Source: a virus
Virus record (IMG/VR): IMGVR_UViG_3300033128_000024
Span: 1-40,564 of that record
Direction: 5' to 3' (one strand)
DNA: 40,564 nucleotides
Part shown: in pieces, positions 14,144-40,030 of the stretch
Numbering within the stretch: the stretch's first letter is position 1
Layout: every line of letters starts with the position of its first letter
The notes under the pieces: model-generated
Databases searched by the model: none
What the model was told of the DNA's origin: nothing
What the model saw: the letters and a program-made list of their open reading frames with translations, nothing else
Made by a program: the position numbers and the translations under genes

Positions 14144-14422
14144 ATGAAGATGAAAACTAAAAAAATCAAACTAGAAATTGAAGAGACACTAAAATACCAC
14201 CGTAGCGTGCTTATTGAGGTCCCAGAAGATATACCAGAAGGTGCACTTAATGATGTTCTTGATGATGCTGAAAAGACTTCATCGAGCGGACAAGATGTGT
14301 CTTATGTTCTTGAAAAGACGAAATGGTTAAAAGTTTTGGAGCGTTCAGATGACGATTATCGAAGTCCGTATAGCACGGAAGTAGAGATTCATGATATGAG
14401 CGAAGTGAGGGATGACAAATGA
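14144..14422 (+). CDS. Acidic hypothetical protein
   Basis: ORF with RBS AAAGGGGA. Confidence 0.55.
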   Translation: MKMKTKKIKLEIEETLKYHRSVLIEVPEDIPEGALNDVLDDAEKTSSSGQDVSYVLEKTKWLKVLERSDDDYRSPYSTEVEIHDMSEVRDDK

Positions 14423-14844
14423 AAAAACTACTAATCACACTAACTATTTTTGCGGCTGCGGTGCTTTATGTGCCGTCTGCTCAAGCAGTATGGTCAAACT
14501 GGCAAACCGAGGGATACGGGCATCAAGCGAGAGTCTTTACGGATGACACCAATTACTATGCAGGCGCCAAGACAATCGACTGGAGAGCGGAAAAGAAAGG
14601 ATCGGGAACACTTTACTACACCGCTGGCGTTTACAAAAAGAGAAGCGGCGGCGGTTTAACAGATACTAAACTTGTACAAAGGGGCAGCTTCAAAGCGGCC
14701 ACGCCTCTAAAGTCGTTTAGCGTGAGTGAAATCCGCAAGCGTACCGGTAAAGGAACATACGTGATCCAGCTGGACTGCTACACGGATTCCAAGAAACGAA
14801 ACTACATCGGAACCTTTGAATCCGTTAAATTCAATATTCGATAG
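14419..14844 (+). CDS. Secreted hypothetical protein
   Basis: Signal peptide: MKKLLITLTIFAAAVLYVPSAQA-VW. Confidence 0.6.
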   Translation: MKKLLITLTIFAAAVLYVPSAQAVWSNWQTEGYGHQARVFTDDTNYYAGAKTIDWRAEKKGSGTLYYTAGVYKKRSGGGLTDTKLVQRGSFKAATPLKSFSVSEIRKRTGKGTYVIQLDCYTDSKKRNYIGTFESVKFNIR

Positions 14845-15769: not shown

Positions 15770-16258
15770 ATGAACGAATTGATTCTTGAGTATAAACGAG
15801 CGTTGAAAGATACAAAAAGAAGTTATGAGCAGCTTGACGAAACAGATCCAAGCCGCAAGATTTTCAGTGCAATAATAAATGATCTCGAGTATGTGGTGAA
15901 ATGGTTGTCCACTGGTAGGCAGCCGGAAGCAAAACGAGCGGCTGACCGAAGATCCGTTTATCAACGTACTGTGTTTGCTTCACCAGAAGTGCTTGAGGCT
16001 TTAGCAAATCAACACAACTTCCCGAAAGAGTCACCCCGTACAGTGAGTGAAGAAGATAAAAGACTGATCGAGTACGCCTTATCTACTCTTACACAAAAGC
16101 AAAAAGAATTGTATCTCTCACATGTTGCTGACGGCAATTCACTAGATAAGATCGCAAGTCTCATGGGAGTTAGCAAAGGAACGGTTCAAAAAACTGTAGA
16201 TAGAGCAAAGAAAAAGATTGCTATTCAAGTAAATTTGCTGGAATCAAAGGGGGCTTGA
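15770..16258 (+). CDS. Sigma-70 region-4-like HTH protein (putative late-gene regulator)
   Basis: The sequence LTQKQKELYLSHVADGNSLDKIASLMGVSKGTVQKTVDRAKKKI resembles region 4 of ECF/LuxR-type sigma factors. Confidence 0.6.
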   Translation: MNELILEYKRALKDTKRSYEQLDETDPSRKIFSAIINDLEYVVKWLSTGRQPEAKRAADRRSVYQRTVFASPEVLEALANQHNFPKESPRTVSEEDKRLIEYALSTLTQKQKELYLSHVADGNSLDKIASLMGVSKGTVQKTVDRAKKKIAIQVNLLESKGA

Positions 16259-16710
16259 CTATGAATCAAATGAATTTAGATATCCCTCAAATTGACGAAG
16301 AAAAAACAAGATTCAAAATAGAAAAAATGATGGAAAAATATAAAATGCTTAGGTTGCAAACGCCAGAGGACTTTCTTCCAAAGATCACAACAACATACAC
16401 CATTACACCGCCGAGTTTTTCAAATCAGTTCCACTCAACCACAGAAGAAGCAGCGCTTAAAAAAATGGATTGGGAGATTGAGCGGGAAAAATACATGAAG
16501 CGAATCGAAAGGGGCATTAATCGTCTTACGCAAAAAGAGCGCCGCATCTTGGTAATGCTCTATATGCAGGATGAAGAAATGTTTGATTATGAAATCTATG
16601 CAGAAATGGGTCTAAGCCAGCGGAATTACTATCGTGTTAAAAACAAAGCATACTATCGACTGGCCTTTGCACTTAGAGAAGAAGTGTATAAGCAGGGGGA
16701 TAAATCATGA
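16255..16710 (+). CDS. ArpU-family-like phage transcriptional regulator
   Basis: RLTQKERRILVMLYMQD...GLSQRNYYRVKNKAYYRLAFAL. The size and position, upstream of the packaging genes, fit ArpU-type late activators. Confidence 0.55.
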   Translation: MTMNQMNLDIPQIDEEKTRFKIEKMMEKYKMLRLQTPEDFLPKITTTYTITPPSFSNQFHSTTEEAALKKMDWEIEREKYMKRIERGINRLTQKERRILVMLYMQDEEMFDYEIYAEMGLSQRNYYRVKNKAYYRLAFALREEVYKQGDKS

Positions 16711-17249
16711 ATTTTGTTCAGCCAATAAGGGACCTTGATCAGATCCATTATATAAAGAAATATCTTGGAGAGCGAAACAAAAGGAACTTGTTGCTTTTTG
16801 TGGCCGGAATCAATCTAGGTTTGCGTATATCCGATCTGCTAGAATTGAGAGTGAAGGATGTAAGGAAGCAATATGTATCTCTAAGAGAACAAAAAACAGG
16901 TAAAGAAAAAAGAATCAAAATAAACAAAACGCTTCGAAAAGCGATAGATCAATATATCAAGGACAAAGATGATCAAGAATACCTTTTTAAAAGCAGAGAA
17001 GGACTTAACAAATCAATCAGCCGCAGCAGTGCATACAATATATTGAGAGAGGCAGCGGAGTATGTTGGCCTCGATAGCATAGGGACACATACACTAAGGA
17101 AAACGTTTGGTTACTGGCATTATAAGAAATTCAAGGATGTGGCTTTGCTGCAAGAAATATTCAACCACTCAAGCCCAGATATTACATTGAGATATATTGG
17201 GATCACACAAGACACAATGGATAGAACAATGGACGACTTTGGCTTATAG
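16707..17249 (+). CDS. Tyrosine recombinase-like protein, catalytic domain only (180 aa)
   Basis: Box I is GLRISDLLELRVKDV. Then come KTGKEKRIKI and THTLRKTFGYWHY (HxxR). Box II is FNHSSPDITLRYIG (H...Y). The full R-K-HxxR-H-Y set is present. There is no N-terminal core-binding domain. Confidence 0.75.
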   Translation: MNFVQPIRDLDQIHYIKKYLGERNKRNLLLFVAGINLGLRISDLLELRVKDVRKQYVSLREQKTGKEKRIKINKTLRKAIDQYIKDKDDQEYLFKSREGLNKSISRSSAYNILREAAEYVGLDSIGTHTLRKTFGYWHYKKFKDVALLQEIFNHSSPDITLRYIGITQDTMDRTMDDFGL

Positions 17250-17284
17250 ACTCATCTGTTCAAATGGCAGGTGGGTCTTTTTTT
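17249..17284 (+). terminator. Intrinsic terminator after the recombinase-like gene
   Basis: The stem arms are gactcatctg and caggtgggtc, followed by T7. The hairpin contains AATGGCA (17263-17269). Confidence 0.7.
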
Positions 17285-17392
17285 GTGCTCTTTTTCACCA
17301 GCTAACCATAACGAGAAAATGTCCAACTCATTTTAGGGAAATGGCTGAAAAGCAAGAGGGACAAAGGATTCAGCGATTCCCTGAGTTAGACA

Positions 17393-17431
17393 CAATAATA
17401 GATATGGTGAATTGGTGGATTGTGTGGATAA
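17393..17431 (+). repeat. Upstream cassette repeat, copy 1 (contains the Trp-rich mini-ORF start MVNWWIVWI)
   Basis: 36/39 identity to 18441-18479; the core atatggtgaa[t/a]tggtggattgtgtggataa is 29/30. TTGAAA-17-TAAATT follows at 17435-17463. Confidence 0.8.
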
Positions 17432-17493: not shown

Positions 17494-18306
17494 ATGACAA
17501 GTAGAGATTGGAAATGGACAGTAAGTGTCTTGATAGGTTTGATAGTCTTATTATTAACCTATAATTTATGGGGTAAACAAGACTCCATTATAGATGTTAT
17601 TTCTATAGGAAGCGGCATAACATCAATTGTATTAGCAATTCTAGCAATTATTATGTCTTTGTTCGAAGGCTTTAAAACTCACTTTAGAGAAGAGAAGTTA
17701 GATGCGAATATTAGTAAATTAGAAAAAAATCTTATAAGTATGGAAAATATCATAGTGGAAGGAAATAATTCTACACATAACAAAATAGAGGACATGGTTA
17801 AAATGTATAAGGATTTTGAGGGAAGTCCTGATTCGAAGGCAATTTACAATGAGCAATTAAAAGATGAAGAGAAACAAGATGTTAATAATAAGAGTGAAGA
17901 GGGGAAAGGAGGTACAACTTCAATCAAACAAGCAAAGAAGAAAGTTAGAAATAAAGTATTTGAGCCTGAAATTAGACAAGGAGGTATTTACCAAGTGGAC
18001 TCTAGAGTTAGTGACGATGGAAACTCGTACTATTTGGTAATTAGCAATGATACCTCAAATAAATATTCTCGTTCAGTAGGGGTAGTAAAGTTAACAAATC
18101 GAATTAAAGAGGGTTCATTGCCAACTCATGTTCTTATAGAAAAGTCGATATTAAAGACGGAAATGGACTATTTTGCTGCATGTGAAATTATTCGCACAAT
18201 CTCCAGAAGGAGGTTGGTAAATAAAGTTGCCGATTTAGACAAATTTAAAATGAAACAAATAATGATTGCTTTGAAAGTTTATTTAGGTTTTTTTAAAACT
18301 TCGTGA
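17494..18306 (+). CDS. Membrane-anchored MazF/PemK-like toxin-domain protein (2 TM, charged linker, C-terminal MazF-like domain)
   Basis: RBS TAGGAGGA precedes the start. The TM helices are VSVLIGLIVLLLTYNLW and IGSGITSIVLAILAIIMSLF. The C-terminus is GGIYQVD...YYLVISND...LPTHVLIE...CEIIRTISRRRLVNKVADLDKFKMKQIMIALKVYLGF, which parallels the MazF/EndoA motifs LPTHVEI and [11 protein letters not shown]. Confidence 0.7.
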   Translation: MTSRDWKWTVSVLIGLIVLLLTYNLWGKQDSIIDVISIGSGITSIVLAILAIIMSLFEGFKTHFREEKLDANISKLEKNLISMENIIVEGNNSTHNKIEDMVKMYKDFEGSPDSKAIYNEQLKDEEKQDVNNKSEEGKGGTTSIKQAKKKVRNKVFEPEIRQGGIYQVDSRVSDDGNSYYLVISNDTSNKYSRSVGVVKLTNRIKEGSLPTHVLIEKSILKTEMDYFAACEIIRTISRRRLVNKVADLDKFKMKQIMIALKVYLGFFKTS

Positions 18307-18314
18307 GTTATAAA

Positions 18315-18382
18315 AATGGCACATTTTTGGCACTATCTTGGCAAAGCATTTTGTCTCAGAGCGGTTATGATGGTATTAGGTG
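18315..18382 (+). repeat. Downstream cassette repeat, copy 1 (68 nt)
   Basis: 60/68 identity to 19244-19311. It starts with AATGGCA, 9 nt after the stop codon. Confidence 0.85.
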
Positions 18383-18394
18383 ATAAGTTGAAGA

Positions 18395-18422
18395 GCGGCT
18401 TCCATTGTGGAACCGCTTTTTT
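18395..18422 (+). terminator. Intrinsic terminator of cassette 1
   Basis: The stem arms are gcggcttcca and tggaaccgc, followed by T6. Confidence 0.8.
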
Positions 18423-18440
18423 ATTGGCAAGTGAATGGAG

Positions 18441-18479
18441 CATTAATATATATGGTGAAATGGTGGATTGTGTGGATAA
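18441..18479 (+). repeat. Upstream cassette repeat, copy 2 (mini-ORF MVKWWIVWITKSV)
   Basis: See 17393-17431. TATAAT lies at 18489-18494, just downstream. Confidence 0.8.
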
Positions 18480-18514: not shown

Positions 18515-19243
18515 ATGAGTGATCTTGTTGGAAATTTAAAAACAATATTAGAGAAATTAAAAAATCACAATAGGAGTTATTCACAATTAAAAAGCGATAT
18601 TTTTGATAATGACAATGTTCAATTAATAGTAGAGACTTCTGGAATTGCAAAGACTTTATATAAATCATATAAGTTTGGCAGCATGTTAAAATTTAGAGCA
18701 TTTTTAAATGGATTTAGCATGAACGAAGATCCTACACAAGCTCAACTAGAAAAATTAGAAAAATATATTTCTGTCGATGATGAGAAAGTCGAATTTATAA
18801 GTAATTTTTTTTCAAATATATTGTTATCTAATTCAAGTAAAGCATGTGTCATAATGGGGACCATTTTAAAAGATATTGTAGATAAGGAAAGTGTTGTTAA
18901 ACATGAAGATTTAATTGCGATCAATGCATTAAAAGAATTTTATGATGTGGATATTGTAAATTTTAATATTATAGAATCAGTATTTATTGACAAGTCAGAA
19001 GAGAAAATAGGTTTGACAGACATTCTTTTTAAGATAAAACATAATGACTTAGATGATTTAAGTGTTCTAATGACCTTAGATAAAGCTGCAGCAACTCAAT
19101 TATTATTTGTAACTACATCGGTTGACATGTCTACAGAGGTAAACAAATTTGAGAATAGAAGAAAAGAAGCAGATAATTTTTATGTAATGACGTCTGGAGG
19201 AAAGGTATTAACGAAGTACATTAACAGAATTTCAGAACTCTAG
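18515..19243 (+). CDS. Hypothetical cytoplasmic protein (242 aa), cassette 2 cargo
   Basis: RBS TAAGGAGGA precedes the start. The gene is AT-rich and no family was recognised. Confidence 0.6.
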   Translation: MSDLVGNLKTILEKLKNHNRSYSQLKSDIFDNDNVQLIVETSGIAKTLYKSYKFGSMLKFRAFLNGFSMNEDPTQAQLEKLEKYISVDDEKVEFISNFFSNILLSNSSKACVIMGTILKDIVDKESVVKHEDLIAINALKEFYDVDIVNFNIIESVFIDKSEEKIGLTDILFKIKHNDLDDLSVLMTLDKAAATQLLFVTTSVDMSTEVNKFENRRKEADNFYVMTSGGKVLTKYINRISEL

Positions 19244-19311
19244 AATGGCATAATTTTAGCACGATCTTGGCAAAACGTTTTGTCTGAGAGAGGTTATGAT
19301 GGTATTAGGTG
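19244..19311 (+). repeat. Downstream cassette repeat, copy 2 (68 nt)
   Basis: It starts with AATGGCA immediately after stop codon 19241-19243. Confidence 0.85.
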
Positions 19312-19327
19312 TAAATTAAGATTTAGA

Positions 19328-19361
19328 ACGTCGTCTCCTTTAAGTAAGGGGACGTTTTTTT
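19328..19361 (+). terminator. Intrinsic terminator of cassette 2
   Basis: acgtc..cc pairs with ggggacgt, followed by T7. The sequence is unrelated to the cassette 1 terminator. Confidence 0.7.
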
Positions 19362-19410
19362 ATTCGGATTTTCTAATTCCTGTCGATATAAAGACAGGAG
19401 GTTTTTAGAA

Positions 19411-20034
19411 ATGAAAAAGTCGAATATGTATTCAAATACTGTTTTCTTTATTATTATTATTTCTTTACTATTAGGTGACCTTATTATTTACACAGGATTA
19501 TTGAATTTGTTTTTTGAAGAGAAGGAAACAATGTGGGCTGGAATAATAGGTTTCACTGGTGCGGTTTTAGGTGGGGGAATAACTTATTATGGTATTAGAA
19601 TGCAATTAAAACATAGAGATAGGGAATTATTTTTGCAAACGGTACACATTAAAATGGAGACTTGTCAAGAATTTATAAGGAAATATTTTAATTATCAAAC
19701 CTTGGCATATGGCGGATTGGAGATTTCAAGAAATTTAGATAATGAAAAACGCGGAAAATTTTTAAGTAATCAATCTTATTTAATTCCAGAATTTACAGAG
19801 CTTATATTTCAAGATAGGGCCGCTTACATGAGTGTTCTCGATTATGAATCTGCTGAAAAGGCAAAAGAAATTCGTACCTCATTAAATAAAAAAGTGACAA
19901 CATTGGGTAAGGTAAAAAAACACATAGACTACGTTGAAGCTTTTGAGGAGATTGAGCAGTTTTGTCTTATATTTCATAAAACTTTTGAGCAACTTGAAAA
20001 CAAGTATATTGAACTTAAAAAATTCAATAAATAA
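19411..20034 (+). CDS. Hypothetical membrane protein (2 N-terminal TM helices plus a helical cytoplasmic domain)
   Basis: RBS GACAGGAGG precedes the start. The TM helices are VFFIIIISLLLGDLIIYTGLL and WAGIIGFTGAVLGGGITYYGI. Confidence 0.6.
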   Translation: MKKSNMYSNTVFFIIIISLLLGDLIIYTGLLNLFFEEKETMWAGIIGFTGAVLGGGITYYGIRMQLKHRDRELFLQTVHIKMETCQEFIRKYFNYQTLAYGGLEISRNLDNEKRGKFLSNQSYLIPEFTELIFQDRAAYMSVLDYESAEKAKEIRTSLNKKVTTLGKVKKHIDYVEAFEEIEQFCLIFHKTFEQLENKYIELKKFNK

Positions 20035-20052
20035 AAAGTTTGAATACTAATG

Positions 20053-20073
20053 GCATCCTTCGGGGTGCTTTTT
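20053..20073 (+). terminator. Intrinsic terminator closing the accessory island
   Basis: Stem-loop gcatcc-ttcg-gggtgc followed by T5. AATGGCA lies at 20049-20055. Confidence 0.7.
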
Positions 20074-20093
20074 ATTTTGGGGAGGGACACAAC

Positions 20094-20450
20094 GTGGACA
20101 ACTCACTCAGGGAACTAATCATTAACACAGCAATTGGACACGCAATAAGGACAGACCAATTGTATAACGGACTTAAAGCCCTTAATAAAAGGGGATGCAT
20201 ATGGGCAGATGGGGAGATCATCAGGGGATTAGGAATGCTTGGGTCTTATGGTGTGAGGGATAGGCAAGCTATAGACAGCATCCTGCATGTCAGCAAGATT
20301 CTATCCTATGAAACAGCTCGATCCTATCTATCATCATATCAAAGGCAGTACAGGGAGTTTTATGCTGTACAGAAAGTAGGGCACCTTCATGCCTTTGTTT
20401 TGTTTGCGATGATAGATGAGAGGAAAGCTGGTGAATCCAATGCCACCTAA
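20094..20450 (+). CDS. Hypothetical protein
   Basis: GTG 20094 follows RBS GGGGAGGGA. The track start at 20040 lies inside the terminator. Confidence 0.5.
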   Translation: MDNSLRELIINTAIGHAIRTDQLYNGLKALNKRGCIWADGEIIRGLGMLGSYGVRDRQAIDSILHVSKILSYETARSYLSSYQRQYREFYAVQKVGHLHAFVLFAMIDERKAGESNAT

Positions 20451-20805
20451 ACCGTTGAGGGAGTGTAAGGTGCGAGGGTGCAGAGAGTTAACAAGGGATG
20501 GTTATTGTCCTACTCATGCTGATGGTAAGCAGCAGGAAGCGAAGTATTACAACAAACATGTTCGAGATAAACAATCAACAAGTTTTTATAAATCAAGAGA
20601 ATGGAAACAGACAAGACAACTTGTTCTATTGCGAGACAATTACCTTTGTCAAAGCTGTTTAAAACAAGATCGTGTCGTTCCTGCTGTTATGGTTCATCAC
20701 ATAGTGGAGCTAAAGCAGGATTGGAACAAACGATTAGATTTAAATAACCTCGAAAGCATGTGTAATAGCTGTCACAACAAGGTTCATGGCAAGCGTGGGT
20801 CATAG
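20440..20805 (+). CDS. HNH endonuclease (packaging-associated)
   Basis: Motifs: CKVRGC...CPTH; WKQTRQLVLLRDNYLCQSC; VHHIVEL; CNSCHNKVHG. The gene lies directly upstream of terS and terL, as in HNH-dependent cos phages. Confidence 0.85.
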   Translation: MPPKPLRECKVRGCRELTRDGYCPTHADGKQQEAKYYNKHVRDKQSTSFYKSREWKQTRQLVLLRDNYLCQSCLKQDRVVPAVMVHHIVELKQDWNKRLDLNNLESMCNSCHNKVHGKRGS

Positions 20806-21008
20806 TACCCCCCGGCATTAAATCCCTAGGAAACGGCTTCGTGAAGATCGGTGAGCCGTCGTCTGCAAACAAACACCGCTTTTCAAAGTTTCCGAAAAAC
20901 AGAAAAACCCCCTCGGCGAAAATGCCGAGAGGGCTTGGTACGACTGGTTTTGTTGTTAATTCGATCATAGCATGATTTCGCTCAAAAACAAGCATAAATT
21001 TCAAAAAT
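20806..21008. other. Non-coding HNH-terS spacer: probable cos/packaging recognition region
   Basis: 203 nt without a credible ORF. It is locally GC-rich (tagtaccccccggc) and contains several hairpins, plus the palindrome tttcaaa-aa-tttgaaa (20999-21014). The position is typical for cos in HNH/P27-terS phages. Confidence 0.4.
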
Positions 21009-21032
21009 TTGAAACGGAATGAGGTGAAAAAT

Positions 21033-21548
21033 ATGCCGAGACCTGCAAAATCCGCAACGCTTCAATTAATACAAGGCAATCCAAATAAGAAAAACACAGA
21101 TGAACTAGCGATGCGTGCTGAACAAGAACAGAAAATGAAAATGCGATCAAATAACATTAAACCTCCTTCATGGTTGGATAAGGTTGCTAAAAAGGAATTC
21201 AAACGGATTGCCGAGCTATTAAAGGAAGTGGACATTATAACGGAGGCAGATATCAGCATGTTGGCCGCCTATTGTAATGCCTATTCACAATACATTTCAA
21301 TAACTAAAGTGATAGAAGCAGATGGACTCATGGTTCATAAAGATGGATTTGATGAGGACGGAAATCCAATTGAATTGATTGGAGAAGAACACCCATTATT
21401 GAAAAGACAAAAGAACTTCTTTGATCAAATGAAGTCAGCTGCAAATGATTTTGGTCTTACTCCATCAGCCCGTGCAAAACTGGCGATCACCAAAACGCAG
21501 GAAATTCGAGAAAAGACGGCTGCTGAGAAGGAGTTTGATAACGTGTGA
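21033..21548 (+). CDS. terS: Terminase small subunit (P27 family)
   Basis: RBS GAGGTGA lies before ATG 21033. The motif PPSWLDKVAKKEFKRIAELLKEVDIITEADISMLAAYCNAYSQY is typical of the P27 family. Confidence 0.8.
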   Translation: MPRPAKSATLQLIQGNPNKKNTDELAMRAEQEQKMKMRSNNIKPPSWLDKVAKKEFKRIAELLKEVDIITEADISMLAAYCNAYSQYISITKVIEADGLMVHKDGFDEDGNPIELIGEEHPLLKRQKNFFDQMKSAANDFGLTPSARAKLAITKTQEIREKTAAEKEFDNV

Positions 21549-23254
21549 CAATTAAGCAGTTTATGATTGATTACTCAAATGATGTTCTACAAGGGGAAAT
21601 TGTAGCTTGTCAAAAACACATTTGGGCCTGTCAGCGTTTTTTGAATGATGTTGAACGAGAAGGAAAAGAAGAGTTTCCATATGTATTCGATGAAGAAAAG
21701 GCCCGCAGATTTCTTTTTTGGATGACTCAATTTAAACATACCAAAGGACCATTAGCAGGTGAAAATATTGATCCTGATCCTATTCAGATTTTCATTTTTG
21801 GCAATGTCTATGGATGGGTCCACAAAGATACCGATATTCGCCGTTTTACAACTGTGTATTGGCAAGTTGGCCGTAAAAATGCAAAGACTCAAAGCTTAGC
21901 AACTGTTGGGTCATATGAAGCAATGGCGCTTGGAGAAAGTATGTCGGAGGTTTATATAGGTGCAACCAAAAAAGAGCAGGCTAAGATTTGCTGGAAAGAA
22001 ATAAATGCTCAAATTGAGGGTAGCGACCTTCTCAATAAACCATCAAAAAAATATAAGGTAGCATATGGGACAATTGAACATATTAAAACAAAATCAATTA
22101 TCACACCACTTGCAAAAGATGCCGGGAAAACCGGAGATGGATTTAATCCTCAATGTGGAATTATTGATGAATATCATGCTCATCCAACATCAGAAATATA
22201 TGATGTTATTGAATCGGGTATGGGAGCAAGATCACAACCGTTAATGGTAATTATCACAACTGCTGGACCTGAATTGAATAATCCTGCTTACCGTGTCGAG
22301 TACAATTTTGCTTCTCGTCTTTTAGATCCAAATATGGTAGAGAAAAATGACCATTACTTTGCAATGATTAATGAGTTAGATGCAGATGATGATATTAAAG
22401 ACGAGAGTAAATGGGAAAAAGCAAATCCGATACTTGCAAAACACGAGTTTGGCATAAATTATTTAAGACGGCGTTTGGAAATGGCTTTGAATGTACCGGA
22501 AAAAATGCGAGATTTCCTCACCAAAAATATGGATATTTGGGTGAACATGCGATCAAACGGATATATGGATATGCAGGCATGGTCTGATTGCGGGGTGAGT
22601 GAAGGTCTACCAGATTTAAAAGGTAAGGAATGTTATGCAGGGATTGACCTATCAAAACGTATTGATTTAACAGCTGCCAGTTTTGAATTTCCACTCGAAA
22701 ATGGGATGTATTATGTTACAGCGCATGGCTTTATGCCAGAAGATACTTTTCATGAAAGGATGAAAACTGACAAGGTACCGTATGATTTGTGGGTCAAAAA
22801 AGGTTGGTTAACTCTTACTGATGGTGCTGTCGTTGACTATGATTATATTCGTGCGTACATCAAGAAAATGGAAAAGGATAAAGGATGGAAAATCAAAGAG
22901 ATTGGATATGATCCATATAACGCAACGCAGTTTGCACAGCAGATGGAAGCTGATGGATATGTCATGATCGAGATCAGGCAAGGGGTGCAAACCTTATCTG
23001 AGCCGACCAAAGATTTACGTGAGAAAGCTAAAGCGCGAAAATTAATCCATGACAACAATGATCTATTGACGTGGGCGATGGGGAATGCCGTCACAAAGAT
23101 TGACGCGCAGGAGAATATCATGCTTGATAAATCAAAGTCGTCACAACGTATTGATCCAGCAGCTGCACTTATAAACGCTCATGTGAGAGCTAGTCAAAAT
23201 GATGATCATTTAGATTTGAATGAGTATATTTTGTCAGGAGGCTTTTCATTCTAA
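21545..23254 (+). CDS. terL: Terminase large subunit
   Basis: 569 aa. The ATPase region is VGRKNAKTQ (Walker A-like) with IIDEYH (Walker B). A C-terminal nuclease region follows. The GTGA start overlaps terS. Confidence 0.9.
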   Translation: MTIKQFMIDYSNDVLQGEIVACQKHIWACQRFLNDVEREGKEEFPYVFDEEKARRFLFWMTQFKHTKGPLAGENIDPDPIQIFIFGNVYGWVHKDTDIRRFTTVYWQVGRKNAKTQSLATVGSYEAMALGESMSEVYIGATKKEQAKICWKEINAQIEGSDLLNKPSKKYKVAYGTIEHIKTKSIITPLAKDAGKTGDGFNPQCGIIDEYHAHPTSEIYDVIESGMGARSQPLMVIITTAGPELNNPAYRVEYNFASRLLDPNMVEKNDHYFAMINELDADDDIKDESKWEKANPILAKHEFGINYLRRRLEMALNVPEKMRDFLTKNMDIWVNMRSNGYMDMQAWSDCGVSEGLPDLKGKECYAGIDLSKRIDLTAASFEFPLENGMYYVTAHGFMPEDTFHERMKTDKVPYDLWVKKGWLTLTDGAVVDYDYIRAYIKKMEKDKGWKIKEIGYDPYNATQFAQQMEADGYVMIEIRQGVQTLSEPTKDLREKAKARKLIHDNNDLLTWAMGNAVTKIDAQENIMLDKSKSSQRIDPAAALINAHVRASQNDDHLDLNEYILSGGFSF

Positions 23255-38671: not shown

Positions 38672-40030
38672 ATGATTCATAAGAATGGACAAATTGATTT
38701 TGATGTAAACGCATATACCAGTTCAAGCGTATCAACCAGCATAAATTTTTGGACGCAGGACCGTCAGACAGCAAGGCTCATATTCAAACTCACGAAAGAT
38801 GGAGTACCACTGCCTTTAGCAGCTGTCACGGGAAAACTTGTATTAGTTATGTCAGATGGCAGCCGATTCATTCGAGACGTAACGATAGTTGATAGAGTGA
38901 ACGGTCACGCCGAGTATATCTTGTCAGACAAAGAGATTAAGCACTACGGCATAGTACAAGCTGAGCTGAATTTGTACTATACAAACGATCAATCTATGTC
39001 CGTGCATCAGTTCTCTTTTAACATTTCAAAGTCCCTCATTGATCATGATATTGTCCCAATCACAGAATATTACGTGGACGAGTTCGAGGCTTTAAGAGCA
39101 AAGATAAATGAGCTGTACGAAGAGTCTATACAAACCATTGATGATCTGAGGGCCAAGTTTGAGGACTTGGAGAAAATCGAGACAAAGGAAGGCGCGCAGT
39201 TCAAAGCAGATGCAGCACTTGCGGCAGCTAAGAAATATACGAATGAATATGCAGAGACACCCGACGGCGCTCAAGATAAAGCAAATGCAGCCTTGAAAAA
39301 GTCGCAAGAATATGTCGATCCACACCTTGAAAACAAAAAGATTCACGTAACAGAATCAGAGAAAAGCAACTGGAACAAGAGCCAGCTTTATAAACTCACG
39401 CCTAACGATGGAAAAGTCGCAAGGTTGCCAAACGGTACTGATATTTTCTCGCTACCTACGGGGTTTTATATGGGGGCGAACCTTGTAAATACGCCAATAT
39501 CAAACGATGGAAGTTTTTATTACGTCGAAGTTTTAGAAACCGCATATAGTCAAGATGATGTAAATTACAAAAGAATCATTGTCACACGCTCATTTGACAA
39601 TTTAACATGGATTGGCACGTTCCATGCACAAGGCTTTCGAGGTTGGAAACGTCTCATAACAGACGGAGATGCCGTAGTCACTTGGAAAACACCATCATTG
39701 TCAAAAGGATGGAAGCAATATGTATCATCAGACGGCTTTCCGCACACGTTACGCTACACAAAAGATGCTTTTGGCGTGGTGGAGATCATTGGATCTATTA
39801 CTGGTGGGGTGATAGGTAATGATGTCGAGGCATTTACATTGCTTGATGGATATTTACCATTGCAATCCATGCACTTTATTGGAGTAGCATCAAGCGTAGG
39901 AACACCAGGAGTACCGCAATATCACCGAACCTATATAGGCACTGACGGTCGGGTTTGCGTTCAATCTTGTTCTAATACGGTAAATCCCAATGAATTTATT
40001 ACGTTTGGTTTCCGTTTTAAAGCAAAGTAA
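38672..40030 (+). CDS. BppU-like baseplate/tail-fibre protein (receptor-binding candidate)
   Basis: The N-terminal Ig-like segment FWTQDRQTARLIFKLTKDGVPLPL...GHAEYILSDKEIKHYGIVQAEL is typical of the BppU_N/DUF2479 family. A coiled coil and a distinct C-terminal domain follow. Confidence 0.6.
   Translation: MIHKNGQIDFDVNAYTSSSVSTSINFWTQDRQTARLIFKLTKDGVPLPLAAVTGKLVLVMSDGSRFIRDVTIVDRVNGHAEYILSDKEIKHYGIVQAELNLYYTNDQSMSVHQFSFNISKSLIDHDIVPITEYYVDEFEALRAKINELYEESIQTIDDLRAKFEDLEKIETKEGAQFKADAALAAAKKYTNEYAETPDGAQDKANAALKKSQEYVDPHLENKKIHVTESEKSNWNKSQLYKLTPNDGKVARLPNGTDIFSLPTGFYMGANLVNTPISNDGSFYYVEVLETAYSQDDVNYKRIIVTRSFDNLTWIGTFHAQGFRGWKRLITDGDAVVTWKTPSLSKGWKQYVSSDGFPHTLRYTKDAFGVVEIIGSITGGVIGNDVEAFTLLDGYLPLQSMHFIGVASSVGTPGVPQYHRTYIGTDGRVCVQSCSNTVNPNEFITFGFRFKAK

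What the first reader, a model, noticed from the sequence alone, without database searches (positions are those of the whole stretch)
18315..18382. Conserved 68-nt element immediately 3' of two unrelated cargo genes (second copy 19244-19311): candidate small RNA or cis-acting site
The two copies are 88% identical (60/68), although the ORFs before them and the terminator hairpins after them are unrelated. The conservation is therefore in the element itself, not a by-product of gene duplication. Each copy starts 0-9 nt after a stop codon and ends 12-16 nt before an independent intrinsic terminator. It would therefore be transcribed as a 3' UTR, or as a short stand-alone RNA of about 80-110 nt. 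It contains three TGGCA/AGCA motifs at roughly helical spacing and an invariant 3' half, GGTTATGATGGTATTAGGTG. In copy 1, gcggtt (18361-18366) duplicates part of the terminator's left arm and could pair with aaccgc (18411-18416). That allows an alternative, anti-terminator-like fold. Possible roles are an RNA antitoxin or regulator for the toxin-like cargo, a protein-binding site, or a recombination target defining cassette ends.
Basis: seen in the sequence. Interest (0 to 1): 0.7.

Follow-up and report, generated by a model that had tools for sequence, protein, structure and literature searches.

The report
Duplicated ArpU-controlled phage late promoter
The repeated 68-base element does not belong to the cargo genes before it: it is the DNA control region (three binding repeats plus a promoter) through which the prophage's ArpU-type regulator switches on DNA-packaging and virion genes, present twice here because accessory genes were inserted around it.

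Summary
In detail: 18315-18382 and 19244-19311 are 60/68 identical, and each follows an unrelated ORF and precedes its own terminator.

The small-RNA/3'-UTR reading is not supported. RNAalifold finds no conserved pair across 30 diverged copies, and Rfam has no hit.

The element travels with the ArpU-family late regulator gene (window 16255-16710). An iterated profile finds about 50 copies in Bacillota prophages. All are on the arpU strand, between arpU and HNH/terS/terL. In many loci no ORF separates the upstream recombinase-like gene (int180) from the element.

The conserved columns are three heptamers (TGGCAC/G) at an 11-nt period, then 18 nt, then an extended -10 (G-n-TAnnnT), then TAnTA. 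The heptamers change with the regulator lineage; the -10 does not.

The element aligns without gaps to two experimentally defined boxes of this late-regulator ('Ltr') superfamily: the ArpU repeats of Enterococcus phiFL2A and the 59-nt RinA block of Staphylococcus 80alpha.

Verdict: it is an ArpU-type late promoter/operator, duplicated around moron-like cargo, and a new member of a known kind.

One open point is more interesting. An intrinsic terminator follows the predicted start by 15-50 nt in most loci, sometimes with no room for another promoter before the first late gene. This hints at obligatory read-through.

The parts
15770..16258 (+). Sigma-like positive control factor gene (context; not found by tblastn near int180 in 80 related genome loci)
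   Evidence: NCBIfam PRK06930 at 150.9 bits (cut-off 136) and Pfam Sigma70_r4_2. tblastn found no homologue near int180 in L025-L104.
16255..16710 (+). ArpU-family late transcriptional regulator (Ltr superfamily); proposed cognate binder of the repeats
   Evidence: NCBIfam TIGR01637 phage_arpU at 143 bits (cut-off 43.1), PHROG 248 'transcriptional activator', Pfam DUF1492. Its presence co-occurs with the element in 31/34 loci, against 1/46 without it.
16707..17249 (+). Small (180 aa) tyrosine-recombinase-like gene ('int180'), catalytic domain only; not required for presence of the element
   Evidence: Pfam Phage_integrase 2e-23. 579 related loci were found. GBSV1 has arpU and the element but no int180.
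17248..17278 (+). Intrinsic terminator of the regulator/recombinase operon
   Evidence: 13-bp stem plus T-run.
17303..17431 (+). 'Module A': conserved non-coding block with 11-nt inverted arms (17320-17330 / 17382-17392). Its 3' end is copy 1 of the 39-nt repeat (17393-17431).
   Evidence: Alignment of 14 loci from different genera; 74.5% identity to KY197768; repeat family D4.
17494..18306 (+). Cargo ORF 1: transmembrane N-terminus plus PemK/MazF-like domain
   Evidence: Pfam PemK_toxin 1.4e-13; PHROG 1936.
18315..18382 (+). ArpU box copy 1. Repeats at 18317-18323, 18328-18334 and 18339-18345; -10 TATGAT at 18366-18371; second motif TATTAG at 18374-18379; predicted start about 18378.
18390..18423 (+). 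Intrinsic terminator 1, starting about +13 from the predicted start. This is the type common to most phi105-like relatives, and its stem shows compensatory changes.
18441..18479 (+). Partial second copy of the 3' end of module A (39-nt repeat). The same terminator-to-repeat junction is present in L010, L014 and L015.
18515..19243 (+). Cargo ORF 2, no family hit
19244..19311 (+). ArpU box copy 2. Repeats at 19246-19252, 19257-19263 (TAGCAC, with G>A at a 92-96% conserved G) and 19268-19274; -10 TATGAT at 19295-19300; predicted start about 19307.
19332..19361 (+). Intrinsic terminator 2 (different sequence from terminator 1)
19411..20450 (+). Cargo ORFs 3 and 4 (207 aa and 136 aa), no family hit
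20416..23254 (+). Start of the late/packaging operon: HNH endonuclease (20416-20805), small terminase (21009-21548), large terminase (21545-23254)
   Evidence: Pfam HNH; tblastn mapping in related loci; terS/terL assigned from ORF order, size and homology to terminase loci in relatives; the window's own terS/terL ORFs were not scanned against Pfam.

Best explanation
The 68-nt element is the operator-promoter ('Ltr box') of the prophage's ArpU-family late regulator.

**Proposed mechanism**
- After induction, ArpU (16255-16710) binds as a multimer to three 7-nt direct repeats. Their 11-nt spacing puts them on one face of the DNA, at about -61 to -35.
- It then recruits host sigma-A RNA polymerase to an activator-dependent promoter that has a conserved (extended) -10 and no -35.
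- Transcription starts near 18378 and 19307 and runs rightwards towards HNH-terS-terL.

**Why it looks attached to cargo genes**
- The ancestral layout is arpU-(int180)-module A-box-terminator-packaging genes.
- In this phage lineage, moron-like cargo ORFs have been inserted between module A and the box. A second cassette was added, which duplicated the box. Each copy therefore appears to sit 'at the 3' end' of an unrelated ORF.

**The terminator**
- The hairpin after each box ends transcripts of the upstream cargo. Late transcripts must also pass it.

**Shown versus inferred**
- Shown here: homology and architecture, genomic linkage, conservation pattern, and absence of RNA structure.
- Inferred: ArpU binding, the exact start site, and how the terminator is passed.
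For: 1. The 151-aa ORF upstream is a bona fide ArpU family member.
2. An iterated nhmmer profile finds about 50 copies. All are on the arpU strand and all but one weak hit lie between arpU and HNH/terS/terL. In 'simple' loci the box lies 170-240 nt after int180 and directly precedes HNH/terS/terL.
3. Among 80 loci fetched through int180, 31 of 34 with an ArpU homologue have the box, against 1 of 46 without (Fisher p about 1e-17). GBSV1 has arpU and the box but no int180. Phi105-like loci whose int180 is only 58% identical keep near-identical boxes and ArpU at 89-94% identity.
4. After removing near-duplicates (25 sequences), the invariant or near-invariant columns are G/C of the heptamers at an 11-nt period, then G(-14), T(-12), A(-11), T(-7), then TA.TA. 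The heptamers differ by lineage (TGGCAC/G, TGACCG, GCGAAC, TGACAG, TTGGCGG) while the -10 and the spacing stay fixed.
5. The element aligns without gaps to the phiFL2A region holding the three 7-nt repeats that are required for ArpU-dependent terS activation and were used in gel-shift assays (PMC3753634). The profile's best hit in that genome is there. It also aligns to the 59-nt RinA block of 80alpha (E=3e-6, same 21-nt distance from last repeat to -10).
6. In published chimeras, the repeat block fused to unrelated intergenic DNA still gives regulator-specific expression. This fits a block that carries its own promoter.
7. There is no conserved RNA structure and no Rfam family.
Against: - No transcript or binding data exist for this phage.
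- In the window the TG of the extended -10 reads GG.
- Ferrer et al. 2011 mapped the phi11/80alpha late 5' end 23 bp upstream of terS. That is downstream of the intergenic terminator and more than 155 bp from the RinA site. The start may therefore not lie next to the repeats.
- A terminator 15-50 nt after the predicted start is awkward for a simple activator model.
- The co-occurrence statistic is not corrected for phylogeny. Distant ArpU homologues missed by tblastn could have boxes that the profile also misses.
Confidence: 0.85

Rival explanations
1. 3'-UTR element or stand-alone small RNA (RNA antitoxin or regulator) belonging to the upstream cargo genes.
For: - Each copy lies 0-8 nt after a stop codon and before a terminator, so cargo transcripts would include it.
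- Cargo ORF 1 has a PemK/MazF-like domain.
Against: - The element occurs in many loci without any ORF between int180 and the element.
- RNAalifold finds 0 pairs over 30 diverged copies, fold z-scores are +0.37 and -1.45, and Rfam has no hit.
- The conserved columns are a -10 hexamer and periodic heptamers, not stems.
- The upstream ORFs are of many unrelated kinds.
Confidence: 0.03
2. RNA-level protein-binding site: three UGGCA repeats in the nascent RNA that control the terminator just downstream (HutP/TRAP-like attenuation).
For: Periodic short repeats lie upstream of a terminator.
Against: - The invariant TAnnnT with G at -14, at a fixed distance, is a DNA promoter signature.
- The homologous phiFL2A and 80alpha repeats act as DNA sites, as shown by gel shifts on DNA probes.
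- The distance from the box to the terminator varies from about 15 to about 165 nt or more, and some loci have no terminator.
Confidence: 0.04
3. Site-specific recombination target (attC-like cassette end) for the adjacent small tyrosine recombinase, defining mobile cargo cassettes.
For: - A conserved recombinase-like gene lies nearby.
- Unrelated cargo ORFs end 0-35 nt before the element in many lineages.
- The window holds two tandem cassettes of the form [39-nt repeat-ORF-68-nt repeat-terminator].
Against: - The element has no inverted-repeat core.
- It is present without the recombinase in GBSV1, and there too cargo lies between arpU and the box.
- It is absent from 45 of 46 int180 loci that lack ArpU.
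- It is present where there is no cargo.
- Homologous recombination between conserved regulatory flanks explains the cassette exchange.
Confidence: 0.04
4. Operator only: ArpU binds here, but the late promoter proper lies downstream of the terminator, close to the first late gene, as mapped for phi11/80alpha.
For: The phi11/80alpha 5' end lies 23 bp upstream of terS, and the RNA was treated to remove 5'-monophosphate ends.
Against: - The -10-like hexamer is strictly conserved at a fixed 21 nt from the last repeat, from Bacillus to Enterococcus and Staphylococcus.
- In L050 and L025, fewer than 30 nt separate the terminator T-run from the first late gene's start codon.
- Published chimeras work with unrelated downstream DNA of about 730 nt.
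- The only sigma-70-like site in the whole phiFL2A arpU-terS spacer overlaps the box.
Confidence: 0.12

Closest known systems
ArpU-responsive terS promoter region of Enterococcus phage phiFL2A (Quiles-Puchalt et al. 2013, PMC3753634)
   Same: - Three 7-nt direct repeats at an 11-nt period (TTGGCGG there, TGGCAC/A here).
- The same 18 nt to TG/GG-n-TAnnnT, followed by 2 nt and TAnTA.
- It lies downstream of an ArpU-family gene and upstream of the packaging genes.
- Gapless alignment, and the profile's best hit in that genome.
   Different: - In phiFL2A the box starts about 8 nt after the arpU stop codon. Here it is 1.6 kb and 2.5 kb away, behind int180, module A and cargo ORFs, and it is duplicated.
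- The heptamer sequence differs.
- The phiFL2A leader is about 730 nt and carries a tRNA-Arg gene. Here the terminator follows within about 15 nt.
59-nt RinA-binding block of Staphylococcus phages 80alpha/phi29 (Ferrer 2011, PMC3152322; Quiles-Puchalt 2013)
   Same: - Identical heptamer core TGGCAG.
- The same 21-nt distance to the TAnnnT hexamer, followed by GA-TAGTGT.
- A terminator lies between the block and terS.
   Different: - Two repeats rather than three.
- The regulator belongs to the RinA family rather than the ArpU family.
- The mapped 5' end in 80alpha/phi11 lies downstream of the terminator.
Alt-dependent late promoter of Lactococcus phage TP901-1
   Same: An activator binds imperfect direct repeats at -76 to -32, upstream of the late start (as cited). 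The geometry predicted here is similar, at -61 to -35.
   Different: The regulator family is different, there are four repeats, and no sequence comparison was made here.
Lambda PR'-qut-tR' late switch (Q antitermination)
   Same: A late promoter is followed closely by an intrinsic terminator that must be passed to reach the late genes, and accessory cargo sits next to it.
   Different: - No Q homologue is present.
- The regulator site lies upstream of the promoter rather than between -35 and -10.
- Antitermination has not been demonstrated here.

Membership tests
Ltr box (ArpU/RinA/LtrC-dependent late promoter region) | Lies downstream of, and on the same strand as, an Ltr-superfamily regulator gene | tested here: met
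   TIGR01637 phage_arpU at 143 bits for 16255-16710. The orientation is the same in all ~50 copies.
Ltr box (ArpU/RinA/LtrC-dependent late promoter region) | Lies upstream of the packaging/late module (terS, often preceded by HNH) | tested here: met
   Window order: box, cargo, HNH 20416, terS 21009, terL 21545. In simple loci the box directly precedes HNH/terS/terL.
Ltr box (ArpU/RinA/LtrC-dependent late promoter region) | Two to four short (7-nt) direct repeats | tested here: met
   Three heptamers at an 11-nt period in both copies. They are the most conserved columns.
Ltr box (ArpU/RinA/LtrC-dependent late promoter region) | Repeats immediately distal to the ltr coding sequence | tested here: not met
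   In the window the boxes lie 1.6 kb and 2.5 kb after the arpU stop codon, behind int180, module A and cargo. In simple loci they lie 170-240 nt after int180. This is a positional difference, not a sequence difference.
Ltr box (ArpU/RinA/LtrC-dependent late promoter region) | Sequence and architecture match experimentally defined boxes | tested here: met
   Gapless alignments to phiFL2A and 80alpha. nhmmer E=0.004 (over 36 kb) and 3e-6 (over 2 kb), at exactly the published sites.
Ltr box (ArpU/RinA/LtrC-dependent late promoter region) | Specificity: the repeats co-vary or co-occur with the cognate regulator | tested here: met
   31/34 against 1/46. Heptamer variants follow ArpU divergence. 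Caveat: the test is not corrected for phylogeny.
Ltr box (ArpU/RinA/LtrC-dependent late promoter region) | The regulator binds the repeats, and the repeats are required for late-gene activation | not testable with these tools
   Needs a gel shift or footprint and reporter mutagenesis.
Sigma-A extended -10 promoter | TGnTATAAT-like element with T-12, A-11 and T-7 | tested here: met
   T 96%, A 100%, T 100% and G(-14) 92% across 25 non-redundant copies. The window reads GGtTATGAT, so the T of the TG is missing.
Sigma-A extended -10 promoter | Primary transcript 5' end about 7 nt downstream | not testable with these tools
   No transcript data are available. Published 80alpha data place a 5' end elsewhere.
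Structured small RNA / cis-regulatory RNA | Conserved secondary structure with covariation, or membership of a curated RNA family | tested here: not met
   RNAalifold finds 0 pairs, z-scores are insignificant, and no Rfam hit comes near any gathering score.
Lambda-Q-type late antitermination module | Late promoter followed by an intrinsic terminator upstream of the late genes | tested here: met
   A terminator lies within 160 nt of the -10 in 32 of 50 loci, most within about 70 nt. In L050 and L025 there is no room for another promoter.
Lambda-Q-type late antitermination module | Regulator-dependent read-through of that terminator; a sigma-dependent pause element | not testable with these tools
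   The second conserved motif TAnTA overlaps the predicted start and could be such an element, but this is speculation.
Integron-like attC cassette site | Imperfect inverted repeats forming a recombination hairpin; dependence on the adjacent tyrosine recombinase | tested here: not met
   No inverted repeat lies within the element. The element is present without the recombinase in GBSV1 and absent from 45/46 recombinase loci that lack ArpU.
Sigma-54 (-24/-12) promoter | GG-N10-GC conserved as TGGCAC-N5-TTGCW | tested here: not met
   Copy 1 fits the GG/GC spacing. But homologues replace the motif by TGACCG, GCGAAC or TGACAG, and there are three tandem units rather than one pair.
cos/pac terminase recognition site | Coincides with the genome end or packaging site | tested here: not met
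   In canonical phi105 the annotated cos (GCGCTCC) lies after HNH/ORF20 at 39319-39325. That phage lacks the element.

The most novel reading that the evidence does not exclude
The Ltr box is a self-contained promoter whose transcripts must pass an intrinsic terminator placed 15-130 nt downstream. On this reading ArpU/RinA-type regulators, which resemble sigma region 4, do more than activate initiation: they make RNA polymerase terminator-resistant, a Q-like switch loaded at the promoter in phages of Gram-positive bacteria.

This would explain three things:
- the long-standing puzzle that RinA binds more than 155 bp upstream of the mapped terS 5' end, with a terminator in between;
- why repeat blocks work when fused to unrelated long leaders;
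- why box-plus-terminator units can bracket moron cassettes, as in this window, without silencing the late genes.
Probability: 0.3. Interest if true: 0.7.

Novelty: new member of a known kind. Interest (0 to 1): 0.33.

Why it matters
- **Annotation.** The result turns a 'mystery conserved element' into a recognisable regulatory part. ArpU-type late promoters can be found by a simple profile across Bacillus, Geobacillus, Enterococcus and Staphylococcus phages. They mark the true start of the late region and an insertion hotspot for accessory genes, possibly defence genes.
- **Mechanism.** The comparison shows that the experimentally defined 'repeat blocks' of phiFL2A and 80alpha contain a strictly conserved -10-like hexamer and are usually followed by a terminator. 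This gives a directly testable hypothesis: promoter in the block, with obligatory terminator read-through. It addresses how this large regulator superfamily works at a distance.

Tried and rejected
- **cos/pac site with TerS-binding repeats.** Rejected: canonical phi105 has cos elsewhere and lacks the element.
- **Sigma-54 promoter.** Rejected because the motif varies in homologues.
- **Structured RNA.** Single-sequence folds, RNAalifold on 30 diverged copies and Rfam at gathering and E-value thresholds (and 53 for a B. cereus-group leader) gave nothing meaningful.
- **Anti-terminator alternative pairing.** Present only in copy 1 and its close relatives.
- **attC-like cassette site for int180.** Rejected.
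- **BLAST of the element plus terminator against the phage collection.** No match; the query is too short and diverged. The pattern scan and the profile search were needed instead.
- **The search for related loci with the ArpU protein in viral contigs.** Returned only close relatives, so it did not separate ArpU from int180. GBSV1, found by tblastn, did.
- **PADLOC on the four cargo proteins.** No hits.
- **The simple sigma-70 scanner.** It does not flag the box in the window because the box has no -35.

Full report
**Observation**

The window carries a 68-nt direct repeat, 18315-18382 and 19244-19311, 60/68 identical with no gaps. Its invariant 3' 20-mer occurs exactly twice, against 0.01 expected by chance. 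Copy 1 starts 8 nt after the stop of ORF 17494-18306, a protein with a transmembrane N-terminus and a PemK/MazF-like domain. Copy 2 starts directly after the stop of ORF 18515-19243. The two ORFs are unrelated. Each copy is followed by a different hairpin plus T-run.

It missed a second repeat of 39 nt (92% identical), at 17393-17431 and 18441-18479, which lies 5' of each of the two ORFs.

**Context**

The window is a phi105-like Bacillus prophage. Upstream of the cargo genes lie three genes:
- a sigma-like positive control factor (15770-16258);
- an ArpU-family regulator (16255-16710; TIGR01637 at 143 bits against a cut-off of 43);
- a 180-aa tyrosine-recombinase-like protein, 'int180' (16707-17249).

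Downstream lie HNH, small terminase and large terminase.

**The element is not tied to the cargo genes**

A pattern scan of viral contigs found 13 phi105-like loci, and it is also present in GenBank KY197768 (L001, fetched). In all of them homology begins sharply at (A/T)TGGCA, the upstream sequence is unrelated, and the element always lies between arpU-int180 and HNH-terS-terL.

An nhmmer profile was iterated over 80 loci fetched through int180 from one genome per species. It converged on about 50 copies, all on the arpU strand.

In 'simple' loci (L025, L030, L050, L040, L041, L042, L056, L060) the element lies only 170-240 nt after int180 with no ORF in between. In several of these loci (L025, L030, L041, L050) it directly precedes HNH, terS and terL, confirmed by Pfam; in L040, L042 and L056 the first downstream ORFs are other genes. 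The cargo ORFs of the window are thus insertions upstream of a pre-existing regulatory element.

**It is tied to ArpU, not to the recombinase**

- Of the 80 int180 loci, 31 of 34 with a detectable ArpU homologue have the element, against 1 of 46 without (Fisher p about 1e-17; not corrected for phylogeny).
- Geobacillus phage GBSV1 has ArpU (49% identity) and the element, with five TGACAG-type repeats, but no int180.
- Phi105-like loci whose int180 is only 58% identical keep ArpU at 89-94% identity and near-identical elements.

**What is conserved**

After removing near-duplicates (25 sequences), the informative columns fall into four groups:
- the heptamers, at an exact 11-nt period, with invariant G and C;
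- T36/T37;
- G(-14), T(-12), A(-11) and T(-7) of an extended -10;
- TA.TA two bases later.

The spacing from the last repeat to the hexamer is fixed at 21 nt. The heptamer sequence changes by lineage: TGGCAC/G, TGACCG, GCGAAC in B. anthracis phage A16R4, TGACAG in GBSV1, and TTGGCGG in phiFL2A. The -10 region does not change. This is the signature of a promoter that depends on an activator and carries a specificity-determining operator. It is not the signature of an RNA.

RNAalifold predicts no pair at all across 30 diverged copies. Single-sequence z-scores are +0.37 and -1.45. Rfam gives nothing near threshold.

**Link to experiment**

Quiles-Puchalt et al. 2013 (PMC3753634) showed three things:
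- ArpU, RinA, LtrC and related 'Ltr' proteins activate the late (terS) operon.
- Activation requires 7-nt direct repeats located just after the regulator gene: three repeats in phiFL2A (ArpU).
- The repeat block confers specificity even when fused to unrelated downstream DNA.

I fetched phiFL2A. Directly after arpU it reads TTGGCGG-tttt-TTGGCGG-aaag-TTGGCGG, then 18 nt, then TGcTAATAT-ag-TAATAT. This aligns without gaps to both window copies and is the profile's best hit in that genome.

The 59-nt RinA block of 80alpha reads TTGGCAG-taaa-GTGGCAG, then 21 nt, then TATTAT-ga-TAGTGT. It too matches the profile (E=3e-6).

The window element is therefore a homologue of experimentally defined Ltr boxes.

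**Mechanism proposed**

ArpU made after induction binds the three heptamers, at about -61 to -35 and on one helical face. It recruits sigma-A RNA polymerase to the -10 (TATGAT, 18366-18371 and 19295-19300). Transcription starts near 18378 and 19307 and runs towards the packaging genes.

Shown here: homology, linkage, conservation pattern and lack of RNA structure. Inferred: binding, start site and direction of control.

**Why it appears twice, behind unrelated ORFs**

The intergenic region after int180 has two conserved parts:
- 'module A' (17303-17431 in the window), an approximately 110-nt block conserved across genera, whose 3' end is the 39-nt repeat;
- the ArpU box with its terminator.

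In simple loci the two parts are adjacent. In the window and in many relatives, unrelated ORFs sit between them and end 0-35 nt before the box.

The window has a second cassette, made of a partial module A, ORF 2, box 2 and terminator 2. The same terminator-to-module-A junction is found in L010, L014 and L015. So the duplication is old, and the cargo has since been exchanged, most simply by homologous recombination between the conserved flanks.

Copy 2 of the window carries a G>A change in repeat 2 that its close relative L015 lacks. This change may weaken copy 2.

**Open point**

By a simple hairpin-plus-T-run detector, 32 of 50 loci have an intrinsic terminator within 160 nt of the -10; in most it starts about 15-50 nt after the predicted start. 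The simple scan of shuffled window sequence gives about 3 per 6 kb on both strands.

This includes simple loci where no upstream cargo needs terminating. In L050 and L025, fewer than 30 nt separate the T-run from the first late gene's start codon. B. cereus-group phages instead have a conserved leader of about 170 nt that ends in a weak terminator. phiFL2A has a terminator-like site and a tRNA-Arg gene in its 730-nt leader.

If the start is next to the box, late transcripts must read through these terminators. That would imply antitermination or strong leakiness.

Against this, Ferrer et al. 2011 mapped the phi11/80alpha 5' end 23 bp before terS, downstream of the terminator, and noted the puzzling distance of more than 155 bp to the RinA site.

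Two observations make me favour a promoter inside the box: the strictly conserved -10 inside the box, and the published chimeras that work with unrelated leaders. Only 5'-end mapping can settle the question.

**Rejected alternatives**

- cos site: canonical phi105 has cos elsewhere and lacks the element.
- Sigma-54 promoter: the motif is not conserved in homologues.
- attC-like site: there is no inverted repeat, and the element is independent of the recombinase.

**Verdict**

This is a real feature and a known kind of element (an ArpU/Ltr late promoter-operator). It is newly recognised in phi105-like Bacillus prophages, and duplicated here by insertion of accessory genes. Interest is modest. 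The promoter-proximal terminator is the part worth an experiment.

Noticed in passing
window 17303-17431 (arms 17320-17330 / 17382-17392); also L025, L030, L041, L050, L056, L060 just after int180: 'Module A' is a non-coding block of about 110 nt, conserved across genera. Its consensus is TAACCATA..TGTGTAACTCA..(about 55 nt with a small hairpin)..AGTTACACAcAATATAAGATATGGGTAACT. The two arms are inverted repeats; in the window they read TGTCCAACTCA / TGAGTTAGACA, with a G:C to C:G double change. Its function is unknown (structured RNA, a second promoter, or a recombinase site). Cargo ORFs insert between it and the ArpU box.
   Followed up: partly
window 16707-17249; L025-L104: A 180-aa tyrosine-recombinase-like protein (catalytic domain only, with all the catalytic residues R, H-x-x-R, H and Y present) sits just upstream of the packaging genes. 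At least 579 loci from many Bacillota encode it, at 52-68% identity among the 80 retrieved. Many of those loci have no detectable ArpU homologue. Its role there is unknown.
   Followed up: partly
L056 6821-7000; L060, L036-L039, L043, L055, L064, L070; L123 4805 onwards: B. cereus-group phages have a conserved leader of about 170 nt after the ArpU box. It starts with the hairpin TTGTGAG...CTCACAA and ends with a weak terminator, GGAGAGCTTTTGCTCTTCTT. No Rfam family matches it.
   Followed up: partly
L124 (phiFL2A) 14629-14703 and 14202-14216: The 730-nt spacer between the ArpU box and terS in phiFL2A holds a tRNA-Arg(ACG) gene and a terminator-like hairpin. The only sigma-70-like site in the whole spacer overlaps the ArpU box.
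   Followed up: partly
L001 (KY197768) compared with L024 (NC_004167): GenBank KY197768, labelled 'phi105', differs from canonical phi105 in the late regulatory region. It has arpU, int180 and the box. Canonical phi105 has a different activator (ORF16), HicB-like ORF17 (the 'toxin-antitoxin system HicB-like' gene) and no box.
   Followed up: yes
window 19258: Repeat 2 of box copy 2 reads TAGCAC where the near-identical relative L015 reads TGGCAC. This G is 92-96% conserved across the family, so copy 2 may be a weakened promoter.
   Followed up: no
window 17494-18306: Cargo ORF 1 fuses an N-terminal transmembrane segment and a coiled-coil-like middle to a PemK/MazF-like domain. There is no adjacent antitoxin gene and no PADLOC hit. 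It may be an abortive-infection or exclusion gene.
   Followed up: partly
window 19377-19400: A hairpin, TTCCTGTCGATATAAAGACAGGAG, overlaps the ribosome-binding site of ORF 19411-20034, just after terminator 2. It could occlude translation initiation.
   Followed up: no
L003, L011, L012, L013, L017, L020 just after the box terminator; L024 about 2193 and about 3398: The motif TTCGACAAA(T/A)T(C/T)TGCA recurs immediately after terminators, in phi105-like loci and in canonical phi105 (upstream of ORF18). It is probably the -35 region of a promoter for the next accessory gene.
   Followed up: no
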